Shown here piece after piece: positions 4,315 to 54,237 of a stretch of 64,000 nucleotides of DNA. This stretch comes from a virus (taxonomy: Duplodnaviria > Heunggongvirae > Uroviricota > Caudoviricetes). Positions within the stretch are counted from its first letter, which is position 1. Each line of letters begins with the position of its first letter. Location of the stretch: the IMG/VR virus record IMGVR_UViG_3300012286_000299, positions 45,277 through 109,276 of that record. One strand, given 5' to 3'. Position numbers and translations under genes: made by a program. The notes beneath the pieces were generated by a model. It did not search any database. It saw nothing but the letters and a program-made list of their open reading frames with translations, and was not told the origin of the DNA.

Positions 4315-4701
4315 ATGGCTGCAGGAATATACAATATTTTATTAGAACAAGGTACCACAGTAGATTTTAAAATTCAATATAAAGATGTAAGTGGTAGTGC
4401 TATAGACTTAACAGGATATGGAGCTGCTATGCAAATTAGAAGTAATTATGCTGATAATAATCCCACAACTTACATTACTTTATCAAGTTCATTAGCAACT
4501 GATGGTACTGGTTTGAATATGTCTTCTGCAAGTTCGGGATATATTGGAATTTATATATCAGCTTGTTCATCTTCAGCTTTAAATTTCCCAAATGCTAGGT
4601 ATGATTTAGAAATATTCTCGGGTAGTGTAGGAACATGTCCTATAACTACACGTATATTAGAAGGGCAAGTTAATTTAAGTAAAGAAACAACAAGACCATA
4701 A
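4315..4701 (+). CDS. Small virion structural protein (Ig-like/BppU-like)
   Basis: YNILLEQGTT, AIDLTGYGAAMQIR, RYDLEI, RILEGQV pattern common upstream of fibre genes. Confidence 0.5.
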   Translation: MAAGIYNILLEQGTTVDFKIQYKDVSGSAIDLTGYGAAMQIRSNYADNNPTTYITLSSSLATDGTGLNMSSASSGYIGIYISACSSSALNFPNARYDLEIFSGSVGTCPITTRILEGQVNLSKETTRP

Positions 4702-4703
4702 TA

Positions 4704-5456
4704 ATGTCTCAAGTAAACATAACATTAAATACTAACACAGTAGATATTAATACAACTAATAATCAAATAGTTGTAACGGATCCTACTAATCCTACTACAG
4801 TCAATGTAGTACAGCCAGTTACTACTGTAGTAGAAGTAATTACAGCAGGGCCACAAGGGCAACAAGGCCTCCCTGGTTCAAGTTCTTTTGTGGATACCGG
4901 TTCTTTTGTAACTACTGCATCATTTAATGCTTTTACAAGTAGTTATAATACAGGAAGTTTTTATGGTTCATTTACAGGTTCATTATTAGGTACTAGTTCA
5001 TGGGCTAATAATGCTATAAGTTCATCTTATTCTGCTACTGCTTCATATGCAATGAATGCAGGTACAACTATTAATACAGGTTCTTTTGTAACTACTGCAT
5101 CATTTAATGCTTTTACTTCTTCATATAGAACAGGAAGTTTTACAGGATCTTTTACAGGATCTTTATTTGGAACTTCATCTTGGGCAGTTTCTTCATCAAG
5201 AGCAGTAACAAGTTCATTTGCTATTAGTGCTTCACAAGCACAAAATGCATTAAGTGCATCTTATTCTACTTTTGCACAAAATTCCGATACAGCAACTAAT
5301 GCTAGTAATTTAACAGGGTTTCAAGCTGCAACTATAGAACAAATTAATGTAGGAGAAACTAATAATGGAACTTATGCTTACATAATAAGAGCACAAGAAT
5401 TAGAACAAAGTAAACATACAACTATAAACATATATAATAATTTAAACTTTACATAA
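4704..5456 (+). CDS. Fibre-associated S/T/G-rich repeat protein
   Basis: Short GPQGQQGLPG collagen-like stretch and two TGSFVTTASFNAFTSSY...GSFTGSL repeats. Confidence 0.55.
   Translation: MSQVNITLNTNTVDINTTNNQIVVTDPTNPTTVNVVQPVTTVVEVITAGPQGQQGLPGSSSFVDTGSFVTTASFNAFTSSYNTGSFYGSFTGSLLGTSSWANNAISSSYSATASYAMNAGTTINTGSFVTTASFNAFTSSYRTGSFTGSFTGSLFGTSSWAVSSSRAVTSSFAISASQAQNALSASYSTFAQNSDTATNASNLTGFQAATIEQINVGETNNGTYAYIIRAQELEQSKHTTINIYNNLNFT
4899..5116 (+). repeat. 38-bp identical direct repeat, 180 bp apart
   Basis: GGTTCTTTTGTAACTACTGCATCATTTAATGCTTTTAC at 4899-4936 and 5079-5116. Confidence 0.9.
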
Positions 5457-43755: not shown

Positions 43756-43870
43756 TAGTCAGGTGGCGGAAAGGTAAACGCTCACAGGTTGGTATTGTAA
43801 AAGAGGAATTGACCTCCATCTCCATGTTTTAATGGTTATACCTTACAGGTTCAAATCCTGTCCTGACTAC
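43756..43870 (+). ncRNA. tRNA-like RNA with expanded, anticodon-less central domain
   Basis: AGTCAGG/CCTGACT acceptor, GCG..GGTA..CGC D arm, ACAGG-TTCAAAT-CCTGT T arm, ~60 nt insert. Confidence 0.6.
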
Positions 43871-44231: not shown

Positions 44232-44319
44232 GGAGAGGTAAGCCAAGTCGGTCTACGGGTCGCGGTCTTGAAAACCGTTGGGTGTAACAGCCGTGTGAGT
44301 TCAAGTCTCACTCTCTCCG
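44232..44319 (+). tRNA. tRNA-Ser(TGA)
   Basis: GCGGT-CTTGAAA-ACCGT, long variable arm, GTGAG-TTCAAGT-CTCAC. Confidence 0.9.
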
Positions 44320-44325
44320 CAATAT

Positions 44326-44397
44326 TGCTTCATAGTGTAATGGTTAGCACAAAACACTTTGACTGTTTTAGTTTGAGTTCGAGTCTCAATGAAGCAT
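44326..44397 (+). tRNA. tRNA-Gln(TTG)
   Basis: AAACA-CTTTGAC-TGTTT; TGCTTCA/TGAAGCA acceptor. Confidence 0.9.
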
Positions 44398-44407
44398 CAA
44401 TTAATTT

Positions 44408-44483
44408 CTGGTAGTAGAGGAGTCCGGTTTATCTCGCTGGCCTTGGACGCTAGAGCACGCAGGTTCGAATCCTGCCTACCAGA
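44408..44483 (+). tRNA. tRNA-Pro(TGG)
   Basis: CTGGC-CTTGGAC-GCTAG; GCAGG-TTCGAAT-CCTGC. Confidence 0.9.
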
Positions 44484-44489
44484 CAACAT

Positions 44490-44562
44490 TCCTTCGAAGC
44501 TCATGTGGACGGGCACCGGGCTTTTAACTCGGGGGTAGTTGGTTCGAGGCCAACCGGGGGAA
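44490..44562 (+). tRNA. tRNA-Lys(TTT)
   Basis: CCGGG-CTTTTAA-CTCGG; GTTGG-TTCGAGG-CCAAC. Confidence 0.85.
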
Positions 44563-44650
44563 CAAAATCAACTAGTCACTGTAAAACCAGTGGGCGTCAG
44601 TAAGTATTCTGAGCGACGTTTAAATCCTGAAAGCAATTGTTGATTTATTT

Positions 44651-44721
44651 GCCTCTGTCGTCTAAAGGTAGGGCCGTTGTTTTACATGCAACAGGTGGTG
44701 GTTCGATTCCATCCAGAGGTA
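44651..44721 (+). tRNA. tRNA-Val(TAC), atypical
   Basis: GCCTCTG/CAGAGGT acceptor; anticodon loop only 6 nt (TTACAT); extra G before T loop. Confidence 0.55.
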
Positions 44722-44729
44722 CAAAAATT

Positions 44730-44810
44730 GGGTAGCAAAAGTCGTTCGGATACGGCAGCCGGTCTGTAAAATCGGTCCTCACGGGGGTGGTTCGAGTCCA
44801 CTGTTGCCCA
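44730..44810 (+). tRNA. tRNA-Tyr(GTA)
   Basis: CCGGT-CTGTAAA-ATCGG; variable arm; GGTGG-TTCGAGT-CCACT. Confidence 0.85.
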
Positions 44811-44874
44811 CAGAATAGTAGAGAAAGGGTAGTCCGTTCCCCTACAACCAGTATACAGGTAAGCGGACGCATAA

Positions 44875-44947
44875 GGAGCTTTGGCAGATCAGGTGATTGC
44901 GCTAGACTGAAAATCTAGAGGAACGGGCTCGATACCCGTAGGCTCCA
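44875..44947 (+). tRNA. tRNA-Phe(GAA)
   Basis: CTAGA-CTGAAAA-TCTAG; T loop CTCGATA atypical. Confidence 0.85.
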
Positions 44948-44956
44948 CAAAAAATT

Positions 44957-45028
44957 GGATTGTTAGCTCAGAGGCAGAGCGGTTGTTTGTTAGGCAACGG
45001 GTCGGGATTTCGAAATTCCCACAATCCT
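44957..45028 (+). tRNA. tRNA-Asn(GTT)
   Basis: GTTGT-TTGTTAG-GCAAC; GGATTGT/ACAATCC. Confidence 0.8.
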
Positions 45029-45034
45029 CAAAAT

Positions 45035-45106
45035 TGCTCTATCGTATAAAGGTTATTACGGTTGACTGTTAATCAATTTATCTAGGTTCGAGTCCTAGTG
45101 GAGCAG
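45035..45106 (+). tRNA. tRNA-Asn(GTT), second copy
   Basis: GTTGA-CTGTTAA-TCAAT; CTAGG-TTCGAGT-CCTAG. Confidence 0.9.
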
Positions 45107-45116
45107 CAAATAAAAA

Positions 45117-45240
45117 TGGGGAAGAAATTCAAAACACTCTCGCGAATTTCTTCAGGAATGATAGTTAAGTAAAGAGTTACATCGGTAAAAACAAGCACTT
45201 GAAATTGTAAGTTAGTTGGTTCGAATCCAACCTTCCCCAC
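45117..45240 (+). ncRNA. tRNA-like RNA with acceptor stem and T arm but non-canonical interior
   Basis: GGGGAAG/CTTCCCC stem stacked on GTTGG-TTCGAAT-CCAAC; ~90 nt interior with GAAGAAATTC/GAATTTCTTC hairpin. Confidence 0.5.
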
Positions 45241-45369
45241 AAAGACTTTTTGTTTGATTAGGAATAATAGGTAGGTCGATAATTATTCCATGGCCCAGAA
45301 ACAATTAGTTAATATCACCAAGGAGGGGTCCATTAGAGGTGATTAATAAATATCTATAAACTCCTGCCA

Positions 45370-45442
45370 CGGTGCGTAGCTCAATCGGTAGAGCGCTGAT
45401 CTGATACGTCAGAGGTAGTGGGATCGTAACCCGCCGTACCGA
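45370..45442 (+). tRNA. tRNA-Ile(GAT)
   Basis: CTGAT-CTGATAC-GTCAG; T loop ATCGTAA atypical. Confidence 0.85.
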
Positions 45443-45510
45443 CAGAAAACCTAGAGTGCTCATTGAATGATGTGGATACAATTCCCGTTCCTTAAGTTCT
45501 AGGTTAAATT

Positions 45511-45597
45511 GGAGAATAGTCTAATATTGGTTTGTAGTGGCATCCTGCTAAGATGTTCCAGGTAAAACTGGTGAGGGTTCGATTCCCTTGTTCTCCG
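45511..45597 (+). tRNA. tRNA-Ser(GCT)
   Basis: GCATC-CTGCTAA-GATGT; CCAG-GTAAAA-CTGG variable arm. Confidence 0.9.
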
Positions 45598-45726
45598 CAA
45601 AAACCTACTCACCGTCCTCATTACGTGTTTAAGGAACACAGGAGTAGAATAGTACGCTCGGTGACTCAGTGGTAAGACACTTTAAAATCTAAAGTACAAC
45701 GATAAGTTAATGGGTTCTTATCAAAT

Positions 45727-45796
45727 ACCGAATGATCTTGGTGATCGAGAATGGCTCATATCCGCTCTCAGATTGGTTCGAAACCAATATTCGGTA
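45727..45796 (+). tRNA. tRNA(CAT), atypical compact
   Basis: ACCGAAT/ATTCGGT acceptor, CTCATAT loop, ATTGG-TTCGAAA-CCAAT; minimal D arm. Confidence 0.55.
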
Positions 45797-45919
45797 CAAG
45801 TAGCCCCGCTCGCGAGGGGATCGTAAAACACAGTAAGCCTCTGACACAAGCTCAAGTAACTGTTCTCATCGTATAGGAGATAGAGTTAACCTTCTCGACG
45901 TCGTGTAAAAAGGTAATAT

Positions 45920-45992
45920 GGTGTTTGTAGCTGAATGGTAAAGCGCTTGATTGTGGTTCAAGAGATTGCGGGTTCGAGTCCCGTCTTACACC
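45920..45992 (+). tRNA. tRNA-His(GTG)
   Basis: CTTGA-TTGTGGT-TCAAG; encoded G-1 opposite C73. Confidence 0.88.
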
Positions 45993-45999
45993 CAAATAT

Positions 46000-46072
46000 G
46001 CCCCTGTGGTGGAATGGAAGACACAACGAGTTTAAGCCTCGTAAACTGCAGGTTCGACTCCTGTCAGGGGTA
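46000..46072 (+). tRNA. tRNA-Leu(TAA), short variable loop
   Basis: ACGAG-TTTAAGC-CTCGT; variable region AAACT only. Confidence 0.85.
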
Positions 46073-46077
46073 CAATT

Positions 46078-46149
46078 GGTCTTATAGTTTAATTGGAAAA
46101 ACTTATCGCTACGAACGATAGAACAAAGGTTCGATCCCTTTTAAGACCT
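46078..46149 (+). tRNA. tRNA-Arg(ACG)
   Basis: TATCG-CTACGAA-CGATA; GGTCTTA/TAAGACC. Confidence 0.88.
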
Positions 46150-46151
46150 CA

Positions 46152-46304
46152 AAACATAATTACAAAGCGTAGATAAGAAGACGTGGAGAGACGTGTCGCA
46201 AGGGTACACAGTTGGGATAAACAGAAATGTTCGGCTCTCGATGGCTGTGTGAAGCACTGAGAAATCAGAAACCAGATTCCTGATAAATCTTATCAATTAT
46301 GTTT
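46152..46304 (+). ncRNA. Unassigned structured RNA between tRNA genes
   Basis: AAACATAATT/AATTATGTTT closing stem, GATAAGA/TCTTATC, ACACAG/CTGTGT, CTGA-GAAA-TCAG. Confidence 0.45.
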
Positions 46305-46308
46305 ATTT

Positions 46309-46381
46309 GCCCTTATAGCATAAATGGAAATGCCACATCCTTCTAAGATGTTCAATACCTGTTCGAATCGGGTTAGGGGTA
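46309..46381 (+). tRNA. tRNA-Arg(TCT)
   Basis: ACATC-CTTCTAA-GATGT. Confidence 0.85.
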
Positions 46382-46387
46382 CAAAAT

Positions 46388-46458
46388 GCGTTCCGCAGAC
46401 AAGGTGTCGGTCAGGTCTCCAAAACCTCGACGGCTGGGTTCGATTCCTAGGGTTCGCG
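46388..46458 (+). tRNA. tRNA-Trp(CCA)
   Basis: AGGT-CTCCAAA-ACCT; two T-T mismatches in acceptor. Confidence 0.75.
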
Positions 46459-46495
46459 CAAATTTAAATAATTGTTTCACTAAAAACCAGAAATC

Positions 46496-47002
46496 ATGAG
46501 TAAGTATCAAAAAACACTCGTAGTGGATTCAAGCTTTATTGCAAGATCAATTATCAGTACTGAAAGAGCATTCGTGATTTCGTACAAGGGTAATGCTGAA
46601 GTAGTAGCTGAACATCCAGAAACTTTCGGATTAGTAAATCCGGAATTAGAAATTTTTAAACCTTCAATTATTAGGGTTTATAAGTATGTAAAGCAAAACA
46701 TTCAAAAAGTTCCTCCAACAAGAGAAAACATCTATAGAAGAGATAACTTTGAATGTGTATATTGTGGAGACAGCAACCAAAGAACATTAACGTTAGATCA
46801 CGTTATTCCTCAATCAAAAGGGGGAAGAAATACATGGGATAACTTAGTAACAGCTTGTAAAAGATGTAATAGTGAAAAAGCCGATTTAACATTAGAAGAA
46901 TTTGGAAAGGAAATACCAGAACCAAAACGTCCTCATTACTTAATGTTGTTAAGACAAATTCACGATATTCCAAAAGAATGGGAACATTTTTTACTTTTTT
47001 AG
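46496..47002 (+). CDS. HNH endonuclease (McrA-like)
   Basis: RRDNFECVYCG, LTLDHVIPQSKGG..TWDNLVTACKRCNSEK. Confidence 0.92.
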   Translation: MSKYQKTLVVDSSFIARSIISTERAFVISYKGNAEVVAEHPETFGLVNPELEIFKPSIIRVYKYVKQNIQKVPPTRENIYRRDNFECVYCGDSNQRTLTLDHVIPQSKGGRNTWDNLVTACKRCNSEKADLTLEEFGKEIPEPKRPHYLMLLRQIHDIPKEWEHFLLF

Positions 47003-47046
47003 TAGGATATTCAAAATAAATTTTGTATATTTAATTATAATAAAAT

Positions 47047-47126
47047 AAATAAACACCTGCTACGTAATCACTGCAGGATAACACGTACAGACAAGGAAGA
47101 AAAGGTCAGTCCAGGTGTTTTTATTT
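47047..47126 (+). ncRNA. Unassigned hairpin-closed element abutting tRNA-Cys
   Basis: AAACACCTG/CAGGTGTTT closing stem. Confidence 0.3.
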
Positions 47127-47198
47127 GGTCCTAAGGCTGATGGTTAAGCTCCACGTCTGCAAAACGTAGGATTTAAAGTTCGAATCTTTATAGGACCT
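47127..47198 (+). tRNA. tRNA-Cys(GCA)
   Basis: ACGT-CTGCAAA-ACGT; GGTCCTA/TAGGACC; T discriminator. Confidence 0.88.
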
Positions 47199-47201
47199 CA
47201 A

Positions 47202-47253
47202 AAAAACTTTTAAAAAAAGTTTGGTTACGCAAAAAATATTTCGTATATTTAAG
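47202..47253 (+). repeat. ~52-bp promoter cassette duplicated at 48854-48906
   Basis: AAAAACTTTT(T)AAAAAAAGTTTGGTTAYGCAAAAAATATTTCGTATATTYAAG; contains TTTG-N20-TATATT. Confidence 0.85.
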
Positions 47254-47273
47254 ATGTAATAAAATAAATAATT

Positions 47274-47347
47274 GCCCGAGTAGCCGAATTGGTATAGGCG
47301 CTAGACTTAGGATCTAGATTTTGCGAGTTCGAGTCTCGCCTTGGGTA
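47274..47347 (+). tRNA. tRNA-Leu(TAG), short variable loop
   Basis: CTAGA-CTTAGGA-TCTAG; variable region ATTTT. Confidence 0.88.
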
Positions 47348-47352
47348 CAAAA

Positions 47353-47421
47353 TTAGAGTTAGCTTATAGTAAAGCAGTAGGATTCGGTTCCTACAGAACG
47401 GATACGAAAACCGACTCTAAT
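47353..47421 (+). pseudogene. Degenerate tRNA-Pro(CGG)-like
   Basis: TTAGAGT/ACTCTAA acceptor, 8-nt anticodon loop ATTCGGTT, degenerate T loop. Confidence 0.45.
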
Positions 47422-47426
47422 TAAAT

Positions 47427-47500
47427 GCTTCTGACGCATAAACGGTGGTGCACTTGATTTGTAACCAAGACTAGAGTCGGTTCGATCCCGATCAGAAGCT
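47427..47500 (+). tRNA. tRNA-Thr(TGT)
   Basis: CTTGA-TTTGTAA-CCAAG; GCTTCTG/CAGAAGC. Confidence 0.85.
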
Positions 47501-47581
47501 CAGGTGTGTCTCGGTACGCTCTGACGAAAGTCAACGACGAGGTCTCGGTAGACAGAACGCGTCTGATTCTACCCATAATTT

Positions 47582-47654
47582 GCGGGTGTCGTATAAAGGC
47601 TAATTATCTTTGACTTCCAATCAAATGATGAGGGTTCGATTCCCTCCATCCGCT
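47582..47654 (+). tRNA. tRNA-Gly(TCC)
   Basis: TTTGA-CTTCCAA-TCAAA; GCGGGTG/CATCCGC; T73. Confidence 0.92.
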
Positions 47655-47661
47655 CAAAACT

Positions 47662-47733
47662 GTTGCGTTAGTGAAGAGGTTAACACGTATCACTTTCTAT
47701 GATAAGGCACGGGTTCGATCCCCGTACGCAATA
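47662..47733 (+). tRNA. tRNA-Glu(TTC)
   Basis: TATCA-CTTTCTA-TGATA; unusual T at position 37. Confidence 0.75.
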
Positions 47734-47738
47734 CAAAA

Positions 47739-47811
47739 GGGTCGGTAGCATAAATGGCAAATGCGCTTGATTTGCAATCAGGAAGATTGGGTTCGAATCC
47801 CACCGTATCCA
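47739..47811 (+). tRNA. tRNA-Ala(TGC)
   Basis: CTTGA-TTTGCAA-TCAGG; G3:T70 pair; two acceptor mismatches. Confidence 0.75.
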
Positions 47812-47879
47812 CTACCCCGACAGGTGAATAGCTTAATCGACTTTACAGATTTGACAACTTGGAATAGACAGGTAATTTT

Positions 47880-47951
47880 GGTCTATTGGTGTAATGGTAA
47901 CAGTACTATCCTGTCACGGTAGTGTAGAGGGTTCGATTCCCTCATAGACCG
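47880..47951 (+). tRNA. tRNA-Asp(GTC)
   Basis: CTATC-CTGTCAC-GGTAG; GGTCTAT/ATAGACC. Confidence 0.9.
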
Positions 47952-47953
47952 CA

Positions 47954-48042
47954 AAATAAGTAGTAAGTAATTGAGATACTTCGAAATCTATTAGCAAAAT
48001 TGAAACTTCAAAAATCTTCTCAATTCAATCATTCTCTTATTT
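47954..48042 (+). ncRNA. TACTTCG-family structured RNA, copy E (no tRNA module)
   Basis: AAATAAG/CTTATTT and AATTGAGA/TCTCAATT stems; arms nearly identical to copy C. Confidence 0.7.
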
Positions 48043-48046
48043 AATT

Positions 48047-48120
48047 CGAGGCATAGTAGAGTTGGTTACAATGTCGCCCTGTCACGGCGAAGGTCACGGG
48101 TTCGAGTCCCGTTGTCTCGG
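48047..48120 (+). tRNA. tRNA-Asp(GTC), second copy
   Basis: TCGCC-CTGTCAC-GGCGA; ACGGG-TTCGAGT-CCCGT. Confidence 0.9.
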
Positions 48121-48132
48121 CAAATATTAAAT

Positions 48133-48207
48133 GGCGGGTGGATCCGGTTGGTATCGGGGATAGTCTCATAAGCTATATTAAACGTGGTTCGATTCCACGA
48201 CGTCGCA
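48133..48207 (+). tRNA. tRNA(CAT), Met or Ile2, imperfect acceptor stem
   Basis: ATAGT-CTCATAA-GCTAT; CGTGG-TTCGATT-CCACG. Confidence 0.6.
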
Positions 48208-48218
48208 ACAAATTAAAC

Positions 48219-48320
48219 GGCAATGCTCTTAGGAGAGGCGGTGTTTCATGAGCACCAAATGAAGGAGTGGAATGTTAATGAGCTCTTAAACATTCTTCGG
48301 TTCGAATCCCCTCATTGCTA
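48219..48320 (+). ncRNA. tRNA-like RNA, CAT loop with very long variable arm
   Basis: GGCAATG/CATTGCT acceptor; GGTGT-TTCATGA-GCACC; GAATGTT/AACATTC extra hairpin; weak T stem. Confidence 0.45.
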
Positions 48321-48334
48321 CAAATAAAATACAT

Positions 48335-48406
48335 AGCGGGATAGAGCAGAGGCAGCTCGTTGGGCTCATAACCCAAAGGTCGGAGGTTCGAATCCTCCTC
48401 CCGCAA
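48335..48406 (+). tRNA. Initiator tRNA-Met(CAT)
   Basis: GGG/CCC at base of anticodon stem; 1:72 mismatch. Confidence 0.88.
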
Positions 48407-48412
48407 CTAATT

Positions 48413-48486
48413 GTCCTTTTAGCTCAGTTGGTTAGAGCAGCTCGCTCATAACGAGAAGGTCACAGGTTCGAGTCCTGTATAGGACA
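48413..48486 (+). tRNA. tRNA(CAT), elongator Met or Ile2
   Basis: CTCG-CTCATAA-CGAG; canonical D and T arms. Confidence 0.88.
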
Positions 48487-48552
48487 CTAAAATTTTATCC
48501 ATTATGAGGTCAATTCCTTCGTCTCCAATGTAAGTTAGCTACTGGCTAATTT

Positions 48553-48943: not shown

Positions 48944-49076
48944 TTGTAAGTGGTAAGTAAGTAAGAGTTACTTCGTTTTTTAGCTCATCTGGTAGAGCAT
49001 AAATTTTTGGTATTTAAGGCAGCAGGTTCAACTCCTGCAAAAACTCACAGACACTCTCTTCACCATTCCCTTACAA
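48944..49076 (+). ncRNA. Y-RNA-like copy A enclosing a normal-order tRNA-Gln(TTG)-like cloverleaf (48975-49044)
   Basis: TTGTAAG/CTTACAA outer stem, GAGTTACTTCG motif, D arm GCTC..GAGC, TAAAT-TTTTGGT-ATTTA, GCAGG-TTCAACT-CCTGC. Confidence 0.7.
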
Positions 49077-49082
49077 CACATA

Positions 49083-49227
49083 TTATAAGTGGTAATAACA
49101 CGTGTTACTTCGCTCTGTTAAAGCCGTGGTCGTGGGTTCGAGCCCCACTCTGAGAAACGTAAATGTCGTCTTAGATAGCTCAGTTGGTAGAGCACGTAAA
49201 TCGACACAGTTAGTCATTCCCTTATAA
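49083..49227 (+). ncRNA. Y-RNA-like copy B with circularly permuted tRNA-Asn(GTT)-like module
   Basis: Order: anticodon hairpin, T arm, acceptor 3' TCTGAGA, loop, acceptor 5' TCTTAGA, D arm; TTATAAG/CTTATAA outer stem. Confidence 0.75.
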
Positions 49228-49235
49228 AAACATAA

Positions 49236-49315
49236 TCAAGTGGTAAGTATTTGAGATACTTCGCAAATTTTTAGGTATAATTTTCACAATCTTCTCAAAT
49301 CAATCATTCCCTTGA
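49236..49315 (+). ncRNA. Y-RNA-like copy C (no tRNA module)
   Basis: TCAAG/CTTGA and TTTGAGA/TCTCAAA stems; GAGATACTTCG motif. Confidence 0.7.
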
Positions 49316-49319
49316 CACA

Positions 49320-49466
49320 TAAAGTAGTAGTAATAGAAAGAGTTACTTCGTATATTGGTTCGATTCCAATATTTTCCGCCAAAACAGGAAAATTAGACAA
49401 ATGGTTAAGTCATCTAACTGCAAATTAGACAAAAATTGTTCACTCTTCTAAATGTTCTCTACTTAT
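49320..49466 (+). ncRNA. Y-RNA-like copy D with circularly permuted tRNA-Cys(GCA)-like module
   Basis: Order: T arm, acceptor 3' ATTTTCC-G-CCA, linker, acceptor 5' GGAAAAT, D arm, TCTAA-CTGCAAA-TTAGA. Confidence 0.78.
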
Positions 49467-49471
49467 TTATC

Positions 49472-49508
49472 AAGGGGATTAGGACGCAAAGCGACTCAAT
49501 CCCCTTTT
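49472..49508 (+). terminator. Hairpin/terminator-like element between RNA array and TROVE gene
   Basis: AAGGGGATT/AATCCCCTT stem plus short T run. Confidence 0.55.
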
Positions 49509-49551: not shown

Positions 49552-51129
49552 ATGGCAAGATACAACACAAAAGCAGTATCAAAAGTACAGACAGTAACTA
49601 ATCACCAAGGTGGTACAGGTTACGCTATCGATCCAAAATTGGAATTAATCGGTATTTTAGCAACAGGGTTAGATAACTCTTATTACGAAAAACTAACAGA
49701 TAAAGAAACTCGTTTCAAAACTCTGATTGTTGATTTAGCTAAGAAAGATCCTGAGTTCGTAGCCAAAGCATTGGTATACGCTAGAACAGTAATGGGACAA
49801 AGAACAGTTACTCACTTCGGTGCAGTAGCACTTACTCCAGCACTTTCTGGTAGAGCAGTTGCTAAAAAATTCTTCTCAAAGAGAGAGAAAAAAGTTAATA
49901 AAGGAGGTATCGTATTCAGATTGGATGATATTCTTGAAATTGTAGCATGTTACCAACACTTCAATCCAGGTAAAGCATTACCAAACTCGATGAAGAAAGG
50001 TTTCAAAACTGCATTAGAATCAGCAGATGCTTACGAATTGGCTAAATATCAAGGTAAAAATAGATCTGTGTCTCTTGTGGATGTTGTGAACTTAGTTCAC
50101 CCTACTCCAAAAGAAACAATGCAAGAAACTTTCAAACAGTTAATGAATGGAAATCTAAAACAATTCAATACTGTTGAGGATAAAAACACAAAAGCTGGAC
50201 AAGAAGTAGCTGCAAAAGTTAAGTCAGGTGAAATTACTAAAGCTCAAGCTGAAGTTGTTTTACAAGAAGCTAAAGAATCTAACTACGCTGAGTTAATCAA
50301 AACTAGAAAGATTGGATACCTAGCATTACTACGTAATTTAAGAAACATCTTAAATACTACAGGAAATGCTGAGTTAATCAAAGCAGCTTGTGAATTGTTA
50401 ACTGATGAGAAATTAATCAGACAGTCATTAGTATTTCCTCACCAAATTGATATCGCATTAGAGGTATTAGTTCTAGAGGTAGGAGCTTCTCAAGCTAGAC
50501 CATTCGTAGCAGCTTTAGATAAAGCATACGAATTAGCTATTCCAAACTTAACTGATTTATTTGCTCACGGTAGAACTGCAGTTGTATTCGATACATCAGG
50601 TTCTATGCACGGAATGGGTCAAGGAGTTAAGATCAATGGGAAAGCAATTAATAAACAATGTATGGAGAAAGCAGCCTTAATTGGTGCAACTCTTGCAAAA
50701 GGTATTGGAGCTGACTTATACCAATTCGGTACAACTTGTGAGGAAGTAAGATACAATCCAAATGATAGCATCAACACTATCAAGAGAATTGGATTATCTC
50801 AAGAAGGTAGAGTAGGTCACGGAACTAGTTTCAACTCAATCTTCGAAACATTAAGTAGATCAGGTAAGTATGATAGAATCTTTATCATCTCCGATTTACA
50901 AGGTGGAGATAGTATTGTAGGTAACAGTAGCTTTAAAAACTACAAATCTAAGTTCGGAGAACCAACAATCTACTCAATTGATATCCAAGGTTACGGGACT
51001 ACAATGTTCAAACCAGGAAACAAATTAGTACAATTGTTCGGATACTCAGCAGATATCTACGAGATGGTTAGACGTGCAGAAATGGACCCTAAAGCAATCT
51101 TAACAGCTATCAACGCTATTGAAATTTAA
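49552..51129 (+). CDS. Ro60/TROVE-domain RNA-binding protein with C-terminal vWA
   Basis: VTNHQGGTGY, DPEFVAKALVYAR, YELAKYQGK, YLALLRNLRNI, LVFPHQ, VFDTSGSM, IFIISDLQ, IDIQGYG. Confidence 0.92.
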   Translation: MARYNTKAVSKVQTVTNHQGGTGYAIDPKLELIGILATGLDNSYYEKLTDKETRFKTLIVDLAKKDPEFVAKALVYARTVMGQRTVTHFGAVALTPALSGRAVAKKFFSKREKKVNKGGIVFRLDDILEIVACYQHFNPGKALPNSMKKGFKTALESADAYELAKYQGKNRSVSLVDVVNLVHPTPKETMQETFKQLMNGNLKQFNTVEDKNTKAGQEVAAKVKSGEITKAQAEVVLQEAKESNYAELIKTRKIGYLALLRNLRNILNTTGNAELIKAACELLTDEKLIRQSLVFPHQIDIALEVLVLEVGASQARPFVAALDKAYELAIPNLTDLFAHGRTAVVFDTSGSMHGMGQGVKINGKAINKQCMEKAALIGATLAKGIGADLYQFGTTCEEVRYNPNDSINTIKRIGLSQEGRVGHGTSFNSIFETLSRSGKYDRIFIISDLQGGDSIVGNSSFKNYKSKFGEPTIYSIDIQGYGTTMFKPGNKLVQLFGYSADIYEMVRRAEMDPKAILTAINAIEI

Positions 51130-51158: not shown

Positions 51159-51194
51159 ATATTTATATGCACACATAAGTTCTTATATATTTTA

Positions 51195-51280
51195 TCGTAG
51201 TAAAAGCTTGGGGTACTTCGCAAATCAAAAACTTCGTGACTTCGCGTCACATACTTTATGACAAGCAATTAACCACCTCG
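51195..51280 (+). ncRNA. Possible degenerate TACTTCG-family copy F
   Basis: GTAGTAAAAGCTTGGGGTACTTCGCAAAT; GCTTG/CAAGC pairing; follows ATATTTAT motif. Confidence 0.35.
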
Positions 51281-53941: not shown

Positions 53942-54237
53942 AATCAATCAGATTAGATAATAGTACTTATGTTCATGTATATGTTCATAGAATACCGGTA
54001 TCATTAGAAGAAGCAGTTATTTCAAGTGAAACAGGATCTTTCCCTGACTATGAAGAACTAGCTAATCAATACATTGATGCTTTAGATGATCATTGGTGTG
54101 TAGCATTTTTAGAAGAACTACACAAAGTATGTGCTCAAAGAATTGTAGAGCATTGGGAAGAATGTGCTCCTAATCAATTAGAAGAAGAACATTATAAACA
54201 ATATTTAAAATTTAAAAAGAATAAAGATGGAAAATAA
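53938..54237 (+). CDS. Hypothetical protein
   Basis: 99 aa, overlapping neighbours. Confidence 0.55.
   Translation: MKSIRLDNSTYVHVYVHRIPVSLEEAVISSETGSFPDYEELANQYIDALDDHWCVAFLEELHKVCAQRIVEHWEECAPNQLEEEHYKQYLKFKKNKDGK

What the first reader, a model, noticed from the sequence alone, without database searches (positions are those of the whole stretch)
49351..49430. Circularly permuted tRNA-Cys(GCA) with encoded CCA and only a 5-nt linker
Seen in order: T arm ATTGG-TTCGATT-CCAAT (49354-70), acceptor 3' strand ATTTTCC-G-CCA (49371-81), linker AAACA, acceptor 5' strand GGAAAAT (49387-93), D arm GAC...GTC, anticodon arm TCTAA-CTGCAAA-TTAGA (49413-29). Every element of a tRNA is present and the acceptor stem is a perfect 7 bp. 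Established: permuted tRNA genes maturing through a circular intermediate are known from some algae and archaea. Inference: excision and ligation at the variable loop (an RNA ligase is encoded at 54227) plus linker trimming could give a real tRNA. Caveat: the discriminator is G rather than the U typical of tRNA-Cys, so a decoy role is equally plausible.
Basis: partly seen in the sequence, partly recalled or inferred. Interest (0 to 1): 0.85.

Follow-up and report, generated by a model that had tools for sequence, protein, structure and literature searches.

The report
Ro60-partner RNA carrying a whole tRNA look-alike
The "permuted tRNA-Cys" is real as a sequence pattern, but it is most likely not a tRNA gene: it is a 145-nt phage Y RNA, the partner RNA of the Ro60 protein encoded 87 bases downstream, and it carries a complete tRNA look-alike whose "anticodon" changes from phage to phage.

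Summary
Observation confirmed. Every element sits at the stated coordinates, and ARAGORN calls the de-permuted module tRNA-Cys(GCA).

The preferred reading, a permuted gene that matures into a real tRNA-Cys, is not supported. The element (49321-49465) is closed by a conserved, covarying stem-bulge "handle". Five sibling RNAs share that handle, and all six lie within 3.3 kb around a full-length Ro60/TROVE gene (49552-51129). One sibling gives a sub-threshold Rfam YrlA match.

I found 24 further distinct homologues in viral and metagenomic contigs. All helices covary, and the tertiary 15:48 pair covaries. The anticodon triplet is the most variable site: there are 11 different triplets, and RNAs more than 90% identical elsewhere differ at about 2 of its 3 bases. 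U33 and A37 stay fixed. NCCA after the acceptor stem is kept in only 10 of 25. The phage has an ordinary tRNA-Cys with U73 and no splicing endonuclease.

This is a new variant of the YrlA-type Y RNA. Published YrlA lacks an anticodon loop and joins its Ro60 stem through the anticodon stem. This RNA keeps all four arms and joins through the variable-loop position. RNase P opening of the 7-bp acceptor stem is plausible but untested.

The scan has noted phage Ro60-plus-handle RNAs on other DNA before.

The parts
49321..49465 (+). Whole RNA ('D-type' Y RNA, 145 nt): handle plus complete tRNA-like module
   Evidence: Covariance model R1 gives a full-length match at 149.6 bits.
49322..49330 (+). Handle, outer stem 5' strand: AAGUAG, bulged U, then AG, followed by the invariant UAA
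   Evidence: It pairs with 49457-49464. Helix 1 is 100% paired, and 4 of 7 pairs show double changes. GUAGUAA is invariant in the 8-sequence alignments.
49338..49350 (+). Handle inner stem 5' strand (AAGAGU) and the near-invariant motif GUUACUUCG
   Evidence: The stem pairs with 49442-49447 (helix 2, 68% paired, register uncertain). The 5' handle motif occurs 6 times in the 173-kb genome, all on the + strand and all beside Ro60.
49353..49370 (+). Position-48 equivalent (U49353) and T arm ATTGG-TTCGATT-CCAAT
   Evidence: Helix 3 is 100% paired with 3 covarying pairs. Position 15:48 is G:C in 16, A:U in 6 and other in 3.
49371..49393 (+). Closed acceptor stem: ATTTTCC, a 9-nt loop G-CCA-AAACA, then GGAAAAT
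   Evidence: Helix 4 is 96.7% paired. The loop begins with NCCA in 10 of 25 distinct homologues.
49394..49412 (+). U8, A9, D arm (GAC-AAATGGTTAA-GTC), A26
   Evidence: A14, G18 and G19 are present in all 25, U8 in 24 and A21 in 24. One D-stem pair covaries.
49413..49429 (+). Anticodon-arm look-alike: 5-bp stem and 7-nt loop CUGCAAA
   Evidence: All 5 pairs covary and are 100% paired. Loop positions are C32 in 20/25, U33 in 23/25, A37 in 25/25 and A38 in 22/25. Positions 34 and 35 have the highest entropy of any unpaired columns and 36 is also highly variable.
49430..49464 (+). 3' linker with the conserved CAC, then the handle 3' strands (ACUCUU; CU-CUACUU)
49472..49506 (+). Intrinsic terminator hairpin followed by UUUUAUUUU, ending the RNA array
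   Evidence: Fold energy is -17.2 kcal/mol, z = -3.9.
49552..51129 (+). Ro60/TROVE protein gene (525 aa), the presumed partner
   Evidence: Pfam TROVE E = 9e-14. An end-to-end match to the Thermus phage phiLo Ro60 structures 9KOP and 9L5Y, E = 2e-19.
48944..49076 (+). Sibling A: the same handle around a normal-order tRNA-like unit, which ARAGORN calls tRNA-Gln
   Evidence: (42 bits).
49083..49227 (+). Sibling B: the same handle with a canonical YrlA-order module
   Evidence: Rfam YrlA RF02553 at 33.8 bits, E = 1.6e-5, below the gathering score of 69.
49236..49320 (+). Sibling C: the handle with a plain stem-loop and no tRNA part
47954..48042 (+). Sibling E: a handle RNA between two tRNA-Asp genes
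   Evidence: (34 bits).
51191..51265 (+). Sibling F: a handle-like RNA just downstream of the Ro60 gene
   Evidence: (15 bits, weak).
47127..47199 (+). The phage's ordinary tRNA-Cys(GCA) with U73, listed for contrast

Best explanation
The element is a phage Y RNA of the YrlA kind, that is, a tRNA-mimicking partner of Ro60. It is not a tRNA gene. Shown: it is the last of four RNAs in an array that ends at a terminator 46 nt upstream of a full-length Ro60 gene. Its 5' and 3' ends pair into a conserved stem-bulge handle shared by all siblings. Inside the handle sits a complete cloverleaf in permuted order, with all tRNA core nucleotides and a covarying 15:48 pair. Inferred: Ro60 binds the handle. 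The module folds into a tRNA L-shape, and the handle leaves from the variable-arm position, as the long arm of a class II tRNA does. This leaves the elbow, the acceptor end and the anticodon loop free. The RNP then presents a tRNA replica to a tRNA-reading factor, either tethering that factor to Ro60 or sequestering it. The anticodon triplet switches between near-identical RNAs while U33 and A37 stay fixed, and the same 7-nt loops recur in distant RNAs. I therefore infer that the partner reads the anticodon. A host tRNA-targeting enzyme such as an anticodon nuclease is the most likely partner, which would fit the adjacent kinase, phosphatase and RNA-ligase repair genes. For members with a 7-bp stem and NCCA, I rate RNase P opening of the acceptor loop at about 40%. 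That would give a two-piece RNA with a free CCA end, as published for M. smegmatis YrlA.
For: Ro60 lies next door on the same strand. The handle motif occurs exactly 6 times in 173 kb, all on the + strand within 3.3 kb around Ro60, against 0.1 expected. Sibling B and a relative in L024 match Rfam YrlA at 34-35 bits. There are 25 distinct homologues, and Ro60 was found in the held locus for 16 of 24 new loci and elsewhere in the same viral record for L030 (11 kb from the RNA); the remaining loci are short stretches or contig fragments. Every helix covaries. The Levitt pair is G15:C48 or A15:U48 in 22 of 25. All 25 re-ordered modules are called tRNA by ARAGORN. For the anticodon loop, 5 of 7 columns vary in a clade whose RNA body has 1 variable column outside the two loops (Fisher p = 9e-6). 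The flanking DNA of that clade is only 89-92% identical. Pairs more than 90% identical outside the loop differ at 1.87 of 3 anticodon bases. Identical loops recur in RNAs 55-70% identical elsewhere. Published precedent: YrlA RNAs are tRNA mimics encoded next to Ro60 in bacteria and 22 phages, and M. smegmatis YrlA, with a 7-bp acceptor stem, is cut by RNase P and receives CCA (PMC4201824; bioRxiv 10.1101/312249).
Against: The element itself gives no Rfam YrlA match even at E <= 10. The handle lacks the published GNCGAA(N)G Ro60-site motif, so Ro60 binding is inferred from linkage only. Folding energies are no better than shuffles (z between -1.0 and -1.7). The structure therefore rests on covariation in alignments partly fitted to the model. 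The anticodon-reading partner is pure inference. In one subclade the loop is simply conserved (CUUGAAA or CUUGUAA), and loop turnover could partly reflect relaxed constraint.
Confidence: 0.85

Rival explanations
1. True circularly permuted tRNA gene. The handle is excised, the ends are ligated at the variable loop by the phage RNA ligase, the acceptor loop is opened and trimmed, and a functional tRNA-Cys results.
For: All tRNA parts are present, and the re-ordered sequence is called tRNA-Cys. It has a perfect 7-bp stem with G-CCA, whereas none of the 24 ordinary tRNAs of the window has CCA at 74-76. RNA ligase, kinase and phosphatase genes lie nearby. [quoted passage not shown]
Against: Orthologues with the same body carry 11 different anticodons. 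The discriminator is G73, not the U73 seen in the phage's real tRNA-Cys. The handle is conserved, covaries and is shared with RNAs that carry no tRNA part. There is no BHB motif and no splicing endonuclease in the phage, and according to Wang et al. none has been reported in bacteria. CCA is absent in 15 of 25.
Confidence: 0.04
2. A Y RNA whose tRNA module is only a generic elbow and acceptor mimic, as proposed for YrlA. The anticodon hairpin would be a structural spacer, and its triplet would drift neutrally without being read by anything.
For: Wang et al. predict that YrlA effectors recognise the elbow. Unpaired loop bases are expected to be free to vary. The window's loop equals that of its own tRNA-Cys only in 7 nt, and the stems differ.
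Against: U33 and A37 are fixed and C32 and A38 nearly so. The triplet changes faster than the flanking DNA in one clade. The triplet is frozen across RNAs 55-70% identical elsewhere in another clade. The same loops (CUGCAAA, CUCAUAA) recur in distant RNAs. These patterns fit selection on the triplet better than drift.
Confidence: 0.25
3. A two-piece, chargeable tRNA-like RNA analogous to two-piece tmRNA. After RNase P cleavage the CCA end is aminoacylated, and the RNA acts on the ribosome or delivers an amino acid.
For: The gene order is the same as in permuted ssrA genes (T arm, acceptor 3' strand with CCA, linker, acceptor 5' strand; my own knowledge, Keiler et al. 2000). NCCA is kept in 10 of 25 while the rest of the loop varies. 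The phage encodes a CCA-adding-type nucleotidyltransferase. Chen et al. note that cleaved M. smegmatis YrlA could potentially be aminoacylated.
Against: ARAGORN finds no tmRNA, and I saw no tag reading frame in the 145-nt sequence. NCCA is missing in 15 of 25, several of which have 2-6-nt closing loops that are unlikely to be cut. A bulky handle with Ro60 at the variable arm would probably hinder ribosome entry (inference).
Confidence: 0.05
4. A decaying remnant of a tandem tRNA pair, or a chance arrangement with no function.
For: The acceptor loop G-CCAAAACA resembles the usual inter-tRNA spacer of this phage, where the trailer after N73 starts with CAA in 21 of the 24 ordinary tRNAs. This fits the published idea that YrlA arose from dimeric tRNAs.
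Against: The RNA body is about 99% conserved where flanking DNA is 89-92% identical. Compensatory changes occur in every helix across 25 homologues.
Confidence: 0.01

Closest known systems
YrlA Y RNAs of bacteria and phages (Rfam RF02553; Chen et al. 2014, PMC4201824; Wang et al. 2018, bioRxiv 10.1101/312249)
   Same: It is encoded next to Ro60 on the same strand, and its ends pair into a stem. The order is T arm, loop-closed acceptor stem, D arm. The tRNA core nucleotides and the covarying 15:48 pair are kept. The authors themselves describe YrlA as resembling a circularly permuted tRNA. The 7-bp acceptor stem matches the M. smegmatis YrlA that RNase P cleaves.
   Different: Published YrlA 'lacks the anticodon loop', and its anticodon stem continues into the Ro60-binding stem, with a V hairpin before the T arm. 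This RNA has a separate, complete anticodon arm after the D arm, and the Ro60 handle leaves from the variable-loop position. The handle sequence (GUAGUAA...GUUACUUCG...CAC...UUCUC) does not show the GNCGAA(N)G motif. There is no Rfam hit.
Deinococcus radiodurans Yrn1
   Same: It is a Ro60-bound Y RNA with a T arm and a possible 5-bp 'anticodon arm'.
   Different: Yrn1 has normal D-AC-T order with the Ro60 stem in place of the acceptor stem, a 6-nt loop and no clear D arm. Siblings such as L013 4709-4835 resemble that layout. The finding element does not.
Circularly permuted tRNA genes of Cyanidioschyzon merolae and some archaea (Soma et al. 2007; Chan et al. 2011, as cited)
   Same: The 3' half precedes the 5' half, the acceptor stem is initially closed by a loop, and the RNA ends pair.
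   Different: Those genes are processed at a BHB motif by the splicing endonuclease into a circle and become decoding tRNAs of fixed identity. Here there is no BHB and no endonuclease, the anticodon is unstable, the flanks form a conserved functional handle, and the break point lies at the variable loop.
Two-piece tmRNA from permuted ssrA genes (my own knowledge: Keiler, Shapiro and Williams 2000)
   Same: It is a bacterial precedent for a permuted tRNA-like gene in which the acceptor 3' strand plus CCA, a linker and the acceptor 5' strand are cut into two base-paired pieces.
   Different: This RNA has no mRNA-like tag region and no SmpB-type anticodon substitute, ARAGORN does not call it, and it is linked to Ro60.
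Thermus phage phiLo Ro60 with Yrl1 and Yrl2 (PMC12135203)
   Same: It is a phage Ro60 (the nearest solved structure to this protein) that binds Y-like RNAs encoded upstream of its gene.
   Different: The phiLo RNAs were identified from structural considerations and a conserved CGAA motif. The passages I read did not describe them as tRNA-shaped.

Membership tests
Circularly permuted tRNA genes (algal/archaeal type) | 3' half (T arm, acceptor 3' strand) encoded upstream of the 5' half | tested here: met
Circularly permuted tRNA genes (algal/archaeal type) | Bulge-helix-bulge motif at the paired termini for the splicing endonuclease | tested here: not met
   The closing stem has one 1-nt bulge and asymmetric internal loops, with no 3-4-3 BHB.
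Circularly permuted tRNA genes (algal/archaeal type) | tRNA splicing endonuclease available | tested here: not met
   PF01974 is absent from the complete 173-kb phage genome, while the controls hit 4 archaea. Not reported in bacteria. The host genome is unknown.
Circularly permuted tRNA genes (algal/archaeal type) | Stable amino-acid identity (anticodon and discriminator) among orthologues | tested here: not met
   There are 11 different triplets in 25 homologues. The discriminator is G73 here, against U73 in the phage's tRNA-Cys.
Circularly permuted tRNA genes (algal/archaeal type) | Circular intermediate or junction-spanning mature RNA | not testable with these tools
YrlA (Rfam RF02553) | Score at or above the Rfam gathering threshold (69 bits) | tested here: not met
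   The element gives no YrlA hit at E <= 10. Sibling B scores 33.8 bits and L024 11179-11296 scores 34.8 bits.
YrlA (Rfam RF02553) | Encoded within about 4 kb of a Ro60 orthologue on the same strand | tested here: met
   It lies 87 nt upstream of the gene on the + strand. The same holds in relatives.
YrlA (Rfam RF02553) | T arm, loop-closed acceptor stem, D arm, with tRNA tertiary nucleotides and a covarying 15:48 pair | tested here: met
YrlA (Rfam RF02553) | Anticodon-stem equivalent formed by the two RNA strands leading to the Ro60 site, with no anticodon loop | tested here: not met
   A separate 5-bp/7-nt anticodon hairpin follows the D arm, and the handle exits between that hairpin and the T arm. 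For the published description.
YrlA (Rfam RF02553) | GNCGAA(N0-1)G motif in the 5' strand of the Ro60-binding stem | tested here: not met
   The handle 5' strand reads GUAGUAA(G/U)...GUUACUUCG. The Rfam alignment places UCGUUACUU against CgaAUGCuu with poor identity.
Y RNA (functional class: RNA bound by Ro60) | Physical binding to Ro60 | not testable with these tools
   Binding is inferred from linkage only.
Canonical tRNA-Cys | Contiguous cloverleaf, U73 discriminator, GCA anticodon | tested here: not met
   ARAGORN does not call it in place. It has G73. GCA is not kept in orthologues.
Two-piece (permuted) tmRNA | tRNA-like domain plus a tag-peptide reading frame, detectable by ARAGORN | tested here: not met
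   ARAGORN reported no tmRNA in the window.

The most novel reading that the evidence does not exclude
These RNAs are Ro60-tethered, complete tRNA replicas whose anticodon is exchanged between phage lineages to engage anticodon-specific host factors, for example defence anticodon nucleases or other tRNA-targeting toxins. This would make them programmable baits or sensors wired to an RNA-surveillance ring and a repair cluster. In the NCCA-bearing members, RNase P opens the acceptor loop to give a two-piece RNA with a genuine CCA end that could even be charged.
Probability: 0.22. Interest if true: 0.8.

Novelty: new variant of a known kind. Interest (0 to 1): 0.55.

Why it matters
What the tRNA-like module of bacterial and phage Y RNAs binds is an open question. 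Published YrlA has no anticodon loop, and its effector was predicted to read only the elbow. A natural family that keeps a full anticodon loop points to a partner that reads the anticodon. In that family U33 and A37 are fixed, while the triplet is frozen in some lineages and switched in others. This gives a direct experimental handle: swap the triplet and see what co-purifies or which hosts are affected. It also matters for annotation. Handle-wrapped tRNA look-alikes beside Ro60 genes are called as ordinary tRNAs by ARAGORN and Rfam here, and they are annotated as tRNA-Tyr and tRNA-Lys in a published crAss-like phage.

Tried and rejected
- A blastn search of the RNA array against 50,697 GenBank phages found no match. 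There is no cultured close relative. The best Ro60 protein hits are 36% identical or less.
- Thermodynamic significance: single-sequence folds are no better than shuffles, so I relied on covariation.
- Three MAFFT re-alignments could not put the 3' handle strand of L009 and L010 in register. The covariance-model alignment fixed this. Helix 2 of the handle is still only 68% paired, so its register is uncertain.
- The Rfam YrlA model applied to the handle aligns poorly and does not reveal the published Ro60-site motif.
- The genome search 'relatives' is not available for a virus record.
- One review could not be read: PMC10870794 is not held.
- I considered a DGR-type hypermutation of the loop and rejected it, because the changes are not restricted to A positions.
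- I considered gene conversion from the phage's own tRNA-Cys and rejected it, because only the 7-nt loop is shared and the stems differ.
- The promoter scan gave nothing above shuffles.

Full report
**1. The observation**

- T arm ATTGG-TTCGATT-CCAAT (49354-70)
- acceptor 3' strand ATTTTCC (49371-77), then G49378, CCA and AAACA
- acceptor 5' strand GGAAAAT (49387-93), giving a perfect 7-bp stem
- U8 and A9, then a D arm GAC/GTC with A14, G18, G19 and A21
- an anticodon arm TCTAA-CTGCAAA-TTAGA (49413-29)

ARAGORN does not call it in place. Rfam's tRNA model hits 49387-49442 at 31.1 bits by skipping the T arm. When the two halves are re-ordered in silico, ARAGORN calls tRNA-Cys(GCA).

**2. The surroundings**

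The ORF that starts 87 nt downstream (49552-51129, + strand) is a full-length Ro60/TROVE protein. Pfam TROVE gives E = 9e-14. It matches the Thermus phage phiLo Ro60 structures end to end at E = 2e-19. Further downstream lie an HD protein, a metallophosphatase, an AAA_33 kinase and an OB-fused RNA ligase, which together form an RNA end-healing and sealing cluster.

The finding element is not isolated. Its ends, AAGUAG-U-AG ... GUUACUUCG on the 5' side and CAC ... CU-CUACUU on the 3' side, pair into a long stem with a bulged U. The same handle wraps sibling RNAs:
- 48944-49076, around a normal-order unit that ARAGORN calls tRNA-Gln
- 49083-49227, with T arm, closed acceptor and D arm, which matches Rfam YrlA at 33.8 bits, E = 1.6e-5, below the gathering score
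- 49236-49320, a plain stem-loop
- 47954-48042
- 51191-51265

These are supported. In the whole 173-kb genome the handle's 5' motif occurs six times, all on the + strand and all within 3.3 kb around Ro60, against 0.1 expected from shuffles. A strong terminator (-17.2 kcal/mol, z = -3.9) follows the element.

**3. Relatives**

Ro60 homologues in IMG/VR gave 19 loci. Pattern scans of viral and metagenome contigs gave 24 more loci not already held. A covariance model of the element (R1) finds 34 full-length matches of 89-163 bits beyond the window's own, which makes 25 distinct sequences in all. Ro60 was found in the held locus for 16 of 24 new loci, and elsewhere in the same viral record for L030, 11 kb from the RNA. 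The remaining loci are short stretches or contig fragments. Each of the five whole viral records searched has one high-scoring copy.

On nine orthologues, 93.5% of cells are paired against 33-45% when the partners are slid. Twenty of 33 pairs carry double changes, and every helix covaries, including all five pairs of the anticodon stem. That alignment was fitted to the model, which favours it somewhat.

The tertiary core is kept. A14, G18, G19 and the T-loop bases T54-T55-C56-G57-A58 are present in all 25, and U8 and A21 in 24. The nucleotide just 5' of the T stem covaries with position 15 as a Levitt pair: G:C in 16, A:U in 6 and other in 3. This fixes the topology. The handle's 5' strand enters at position 48 and its 3' strand leaves after the anticodon stem, so the handle occupies the variable-arm position.

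**4. The anticodon and the CCA**

Across the 25 distinct RNAs the loop reads C32 (20/25), U33 (23/25), NNN, A37 (25/25), A38 (22/25). Positions 34 and 35 have the highest entropy of all unpaired columns, and 36 is also highly variable. Eleven triplets occur: GCA, CAU, GUA, GAA, AAU, CUU, AAC, AUU, UGA, UGU and UCC.

In the clade L002/L004/L005/L012/L049, 9 of the 10 variable columns lie in the anticodon loop (5) or the acceptor loop (4). Fisher p = 9e-6 for the anticodon loop. The flanking DNA of these phages is only 89-92% identical. The body is therefore under strong purifying selection, while the triplet turns over faster than the surrounding DNA.

Pairs more than 90% identical outside the loop differ at 1.87 of 3 triplet positions. 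Conversely, identical loops (CUUGAAA in 6, CUUGUAA in 4, CUCAUAA in 3, CUGCAAA in 2) recur in RNAs only 55-70% identical elsewhere. One contig (L024) carries two copies, with CAU and GCA.

NCCA directly after the acceptor stem is present in 10 of 25. Two others have one-base variants (GCUA, GCCU). The rest have short closing loops or other sequences. None of the window's 24 ordinary tRNAs has CCA at 74-76. In 21 of them the trailer after N73 begins C-A-A. The element's G-CCA is therefore unusual in this genome, though it also resembles a normal inter-tRNA spacer. The phage encodes a CCA-adding-type nucleotidyltransferase and has no splicing endonuclease.

**5. What it is**

The anatomy matches published YrlA Y RNAs. 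These are tRNA mimics encoded next to Ro60 in 254 bacterial species and 22 phages, with T, closed acceptor and D arms and a covarying Levitt pair (PMC4201824). Their authors explicitly liken them to circularly permuted tRNAs (bioRxiv 10.1101/312249).

There are two differences. Published YrlA 'lacks the anticodon loop', and its anticodon stem runs on into the Ro60 stem. This RNA has all four arms, and the handle leaves from the variable position. The handle sequence also does not show the GNCGAA(N)G motif, and Rfam does not recognise the element. I therefore file it as a new variant of a known kind, not as a member of RF02553.

**6. How it most likely works**

Shown: the structure, its conservation and its linkage to Ro60.

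Inferred: Ro60 binds the handle. The module folds as an L-shaped tRNA replica with the elbow, acceptor end and anticodon loop exposed. The RNP presents this replica to a tRNA-reading factor. The pattern at the triplet (fixed U33 and A37, switching in one clade, frozen in another, recurrent loops) argues that the factor reads the anticodon. A host tRNA-targeting enzyme is my favoured candidate, given the adjacent repair genes, but nothing here tests that.

M. smegmatis YrlA, which also has a 7-bp acceptor stem, is cleaved by RNase P and receives CCA in vivo. Opening of the loop between A49386 and G49387 is therefore plausible, at about 40%, and would yield a two-piece RNA with a free CCA end.

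**7. Why not a real permuted tRNA-Cys**

- The anticodon is not kept among orthologues with identical bodies.
- The discriminator is G73, while the phage's own tRNA-Cys (47127-47199) has U73 and the same CUGCAAA loop.
- The flanks form a conserved functional handle that is shared with RNAs lacking any tRNA part.
- There is no BHB motif and no endonuclease.
- CCA is dispensable in most homologues.

I give this reading about 4%.

**8. Context within this scan**

Notes from the scan describe the four-RNA array and the handle on this same window (e1-5427335, e1-5427336). They also describe phage Ro60-like genes with handle RNAs in many other genomes (for example e1-272486, e1-1835814 and e1-5435257). 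The general pairing has therefore been seen before on other DNA. What this report adds for this element is the homologue set, the variable-arm topology fixed by the 15:48 covariation, the behaviour of the anticodon triplet, and the partial conservation of NCCA.

**9. Limits**

The host is unknown. Helix 2 of the handle is poorly registered. The selection argument rests on few lineages without a tree-based test.

Noticed in passing
window 48974-49046 (within 48944-49076): ARAGORN and Rfam call this unit tRNA-Gln(UUG). It is wrapped in the same Ro60-type handle, has a weak A/U acceptor stem with a C1.U72 mismatch, and duplicates a better tRNA-Gln at 44326-44398. It is probably a Y RNA cargo rather than a decoding tRNA.
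   Followed up: partly
L053 (phage csAssE-Sib, OR575929) 4496-4915: In this published crAss-like phage, the annotated tRNA-Tyr and tRNA-Lys just upstream of the 'Ro sixty-related protein' gene are each flanked by the handle (GUGGUGA...UUACUUCG ... CCCU). A third, YrlA-order RNA at 4496-4629 is unannotated.
   Followed up: partly
window, all 24 ordinary tRNAs (44232-48487): In 21 of the 24 ordinary tRNA genes the trailer after N73 begins C-A-A (often CAAAA), and none has CCA at positions 74-76. This looks like a uniform trailer or processing signal. A CCA-adding-type gene lies at G000:152731-153138.
   Followed up: partly
L009 1489-1905: A GOLLD RNA (Rfam RF02032, 277 bits) lies about 220 nt upstream of that phage's D-type Y RNA and its Ro60 gene.
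   Followed up: no
window 45160-45250: A degenerate handle 5' half (AUAGUUAAG...GAGUUACAUCG) is followed by a lone T arm (UUGG-UUCGAAU-CCAA), between tRNA-Asn and tRNA-Ile. It may be a seventh, partial handle RNA.
   Followed up: no
window 43757-43869 and 47427-47500: Rfam tRNA hits (38.5 and 43.4 bits) that ARAGORN did not report. The first is 113 nt long, so it may carry an insertion or intron.
   Followed up: no
L013 5304-5438: A handle-wrapped normal-order tRNA-like unit whose anticodon loop reads AUUUAGG (anticodon UUA, which would pair with the UAA stop codon).
   Followed up: no
L012 1262-1418 and L005 1266-1424: The canonical YrlA-order sibling in these phages also has a 7-bp acceptor stem followed by A-CCA (A-CUA in L005) and a long loop. 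NCCA after the stem is therefore not confined to the D-type RNA.
   Followed up: no
L024 7517-7665 and 11415-11564: One 17.7-kb viral contig carries two D-type RNAs with different anticodons (CAU and GCA), both with GCCAUUUUU loops. They flank its Ro60 gene inside a dense tRNA array.
   Followed up: partly
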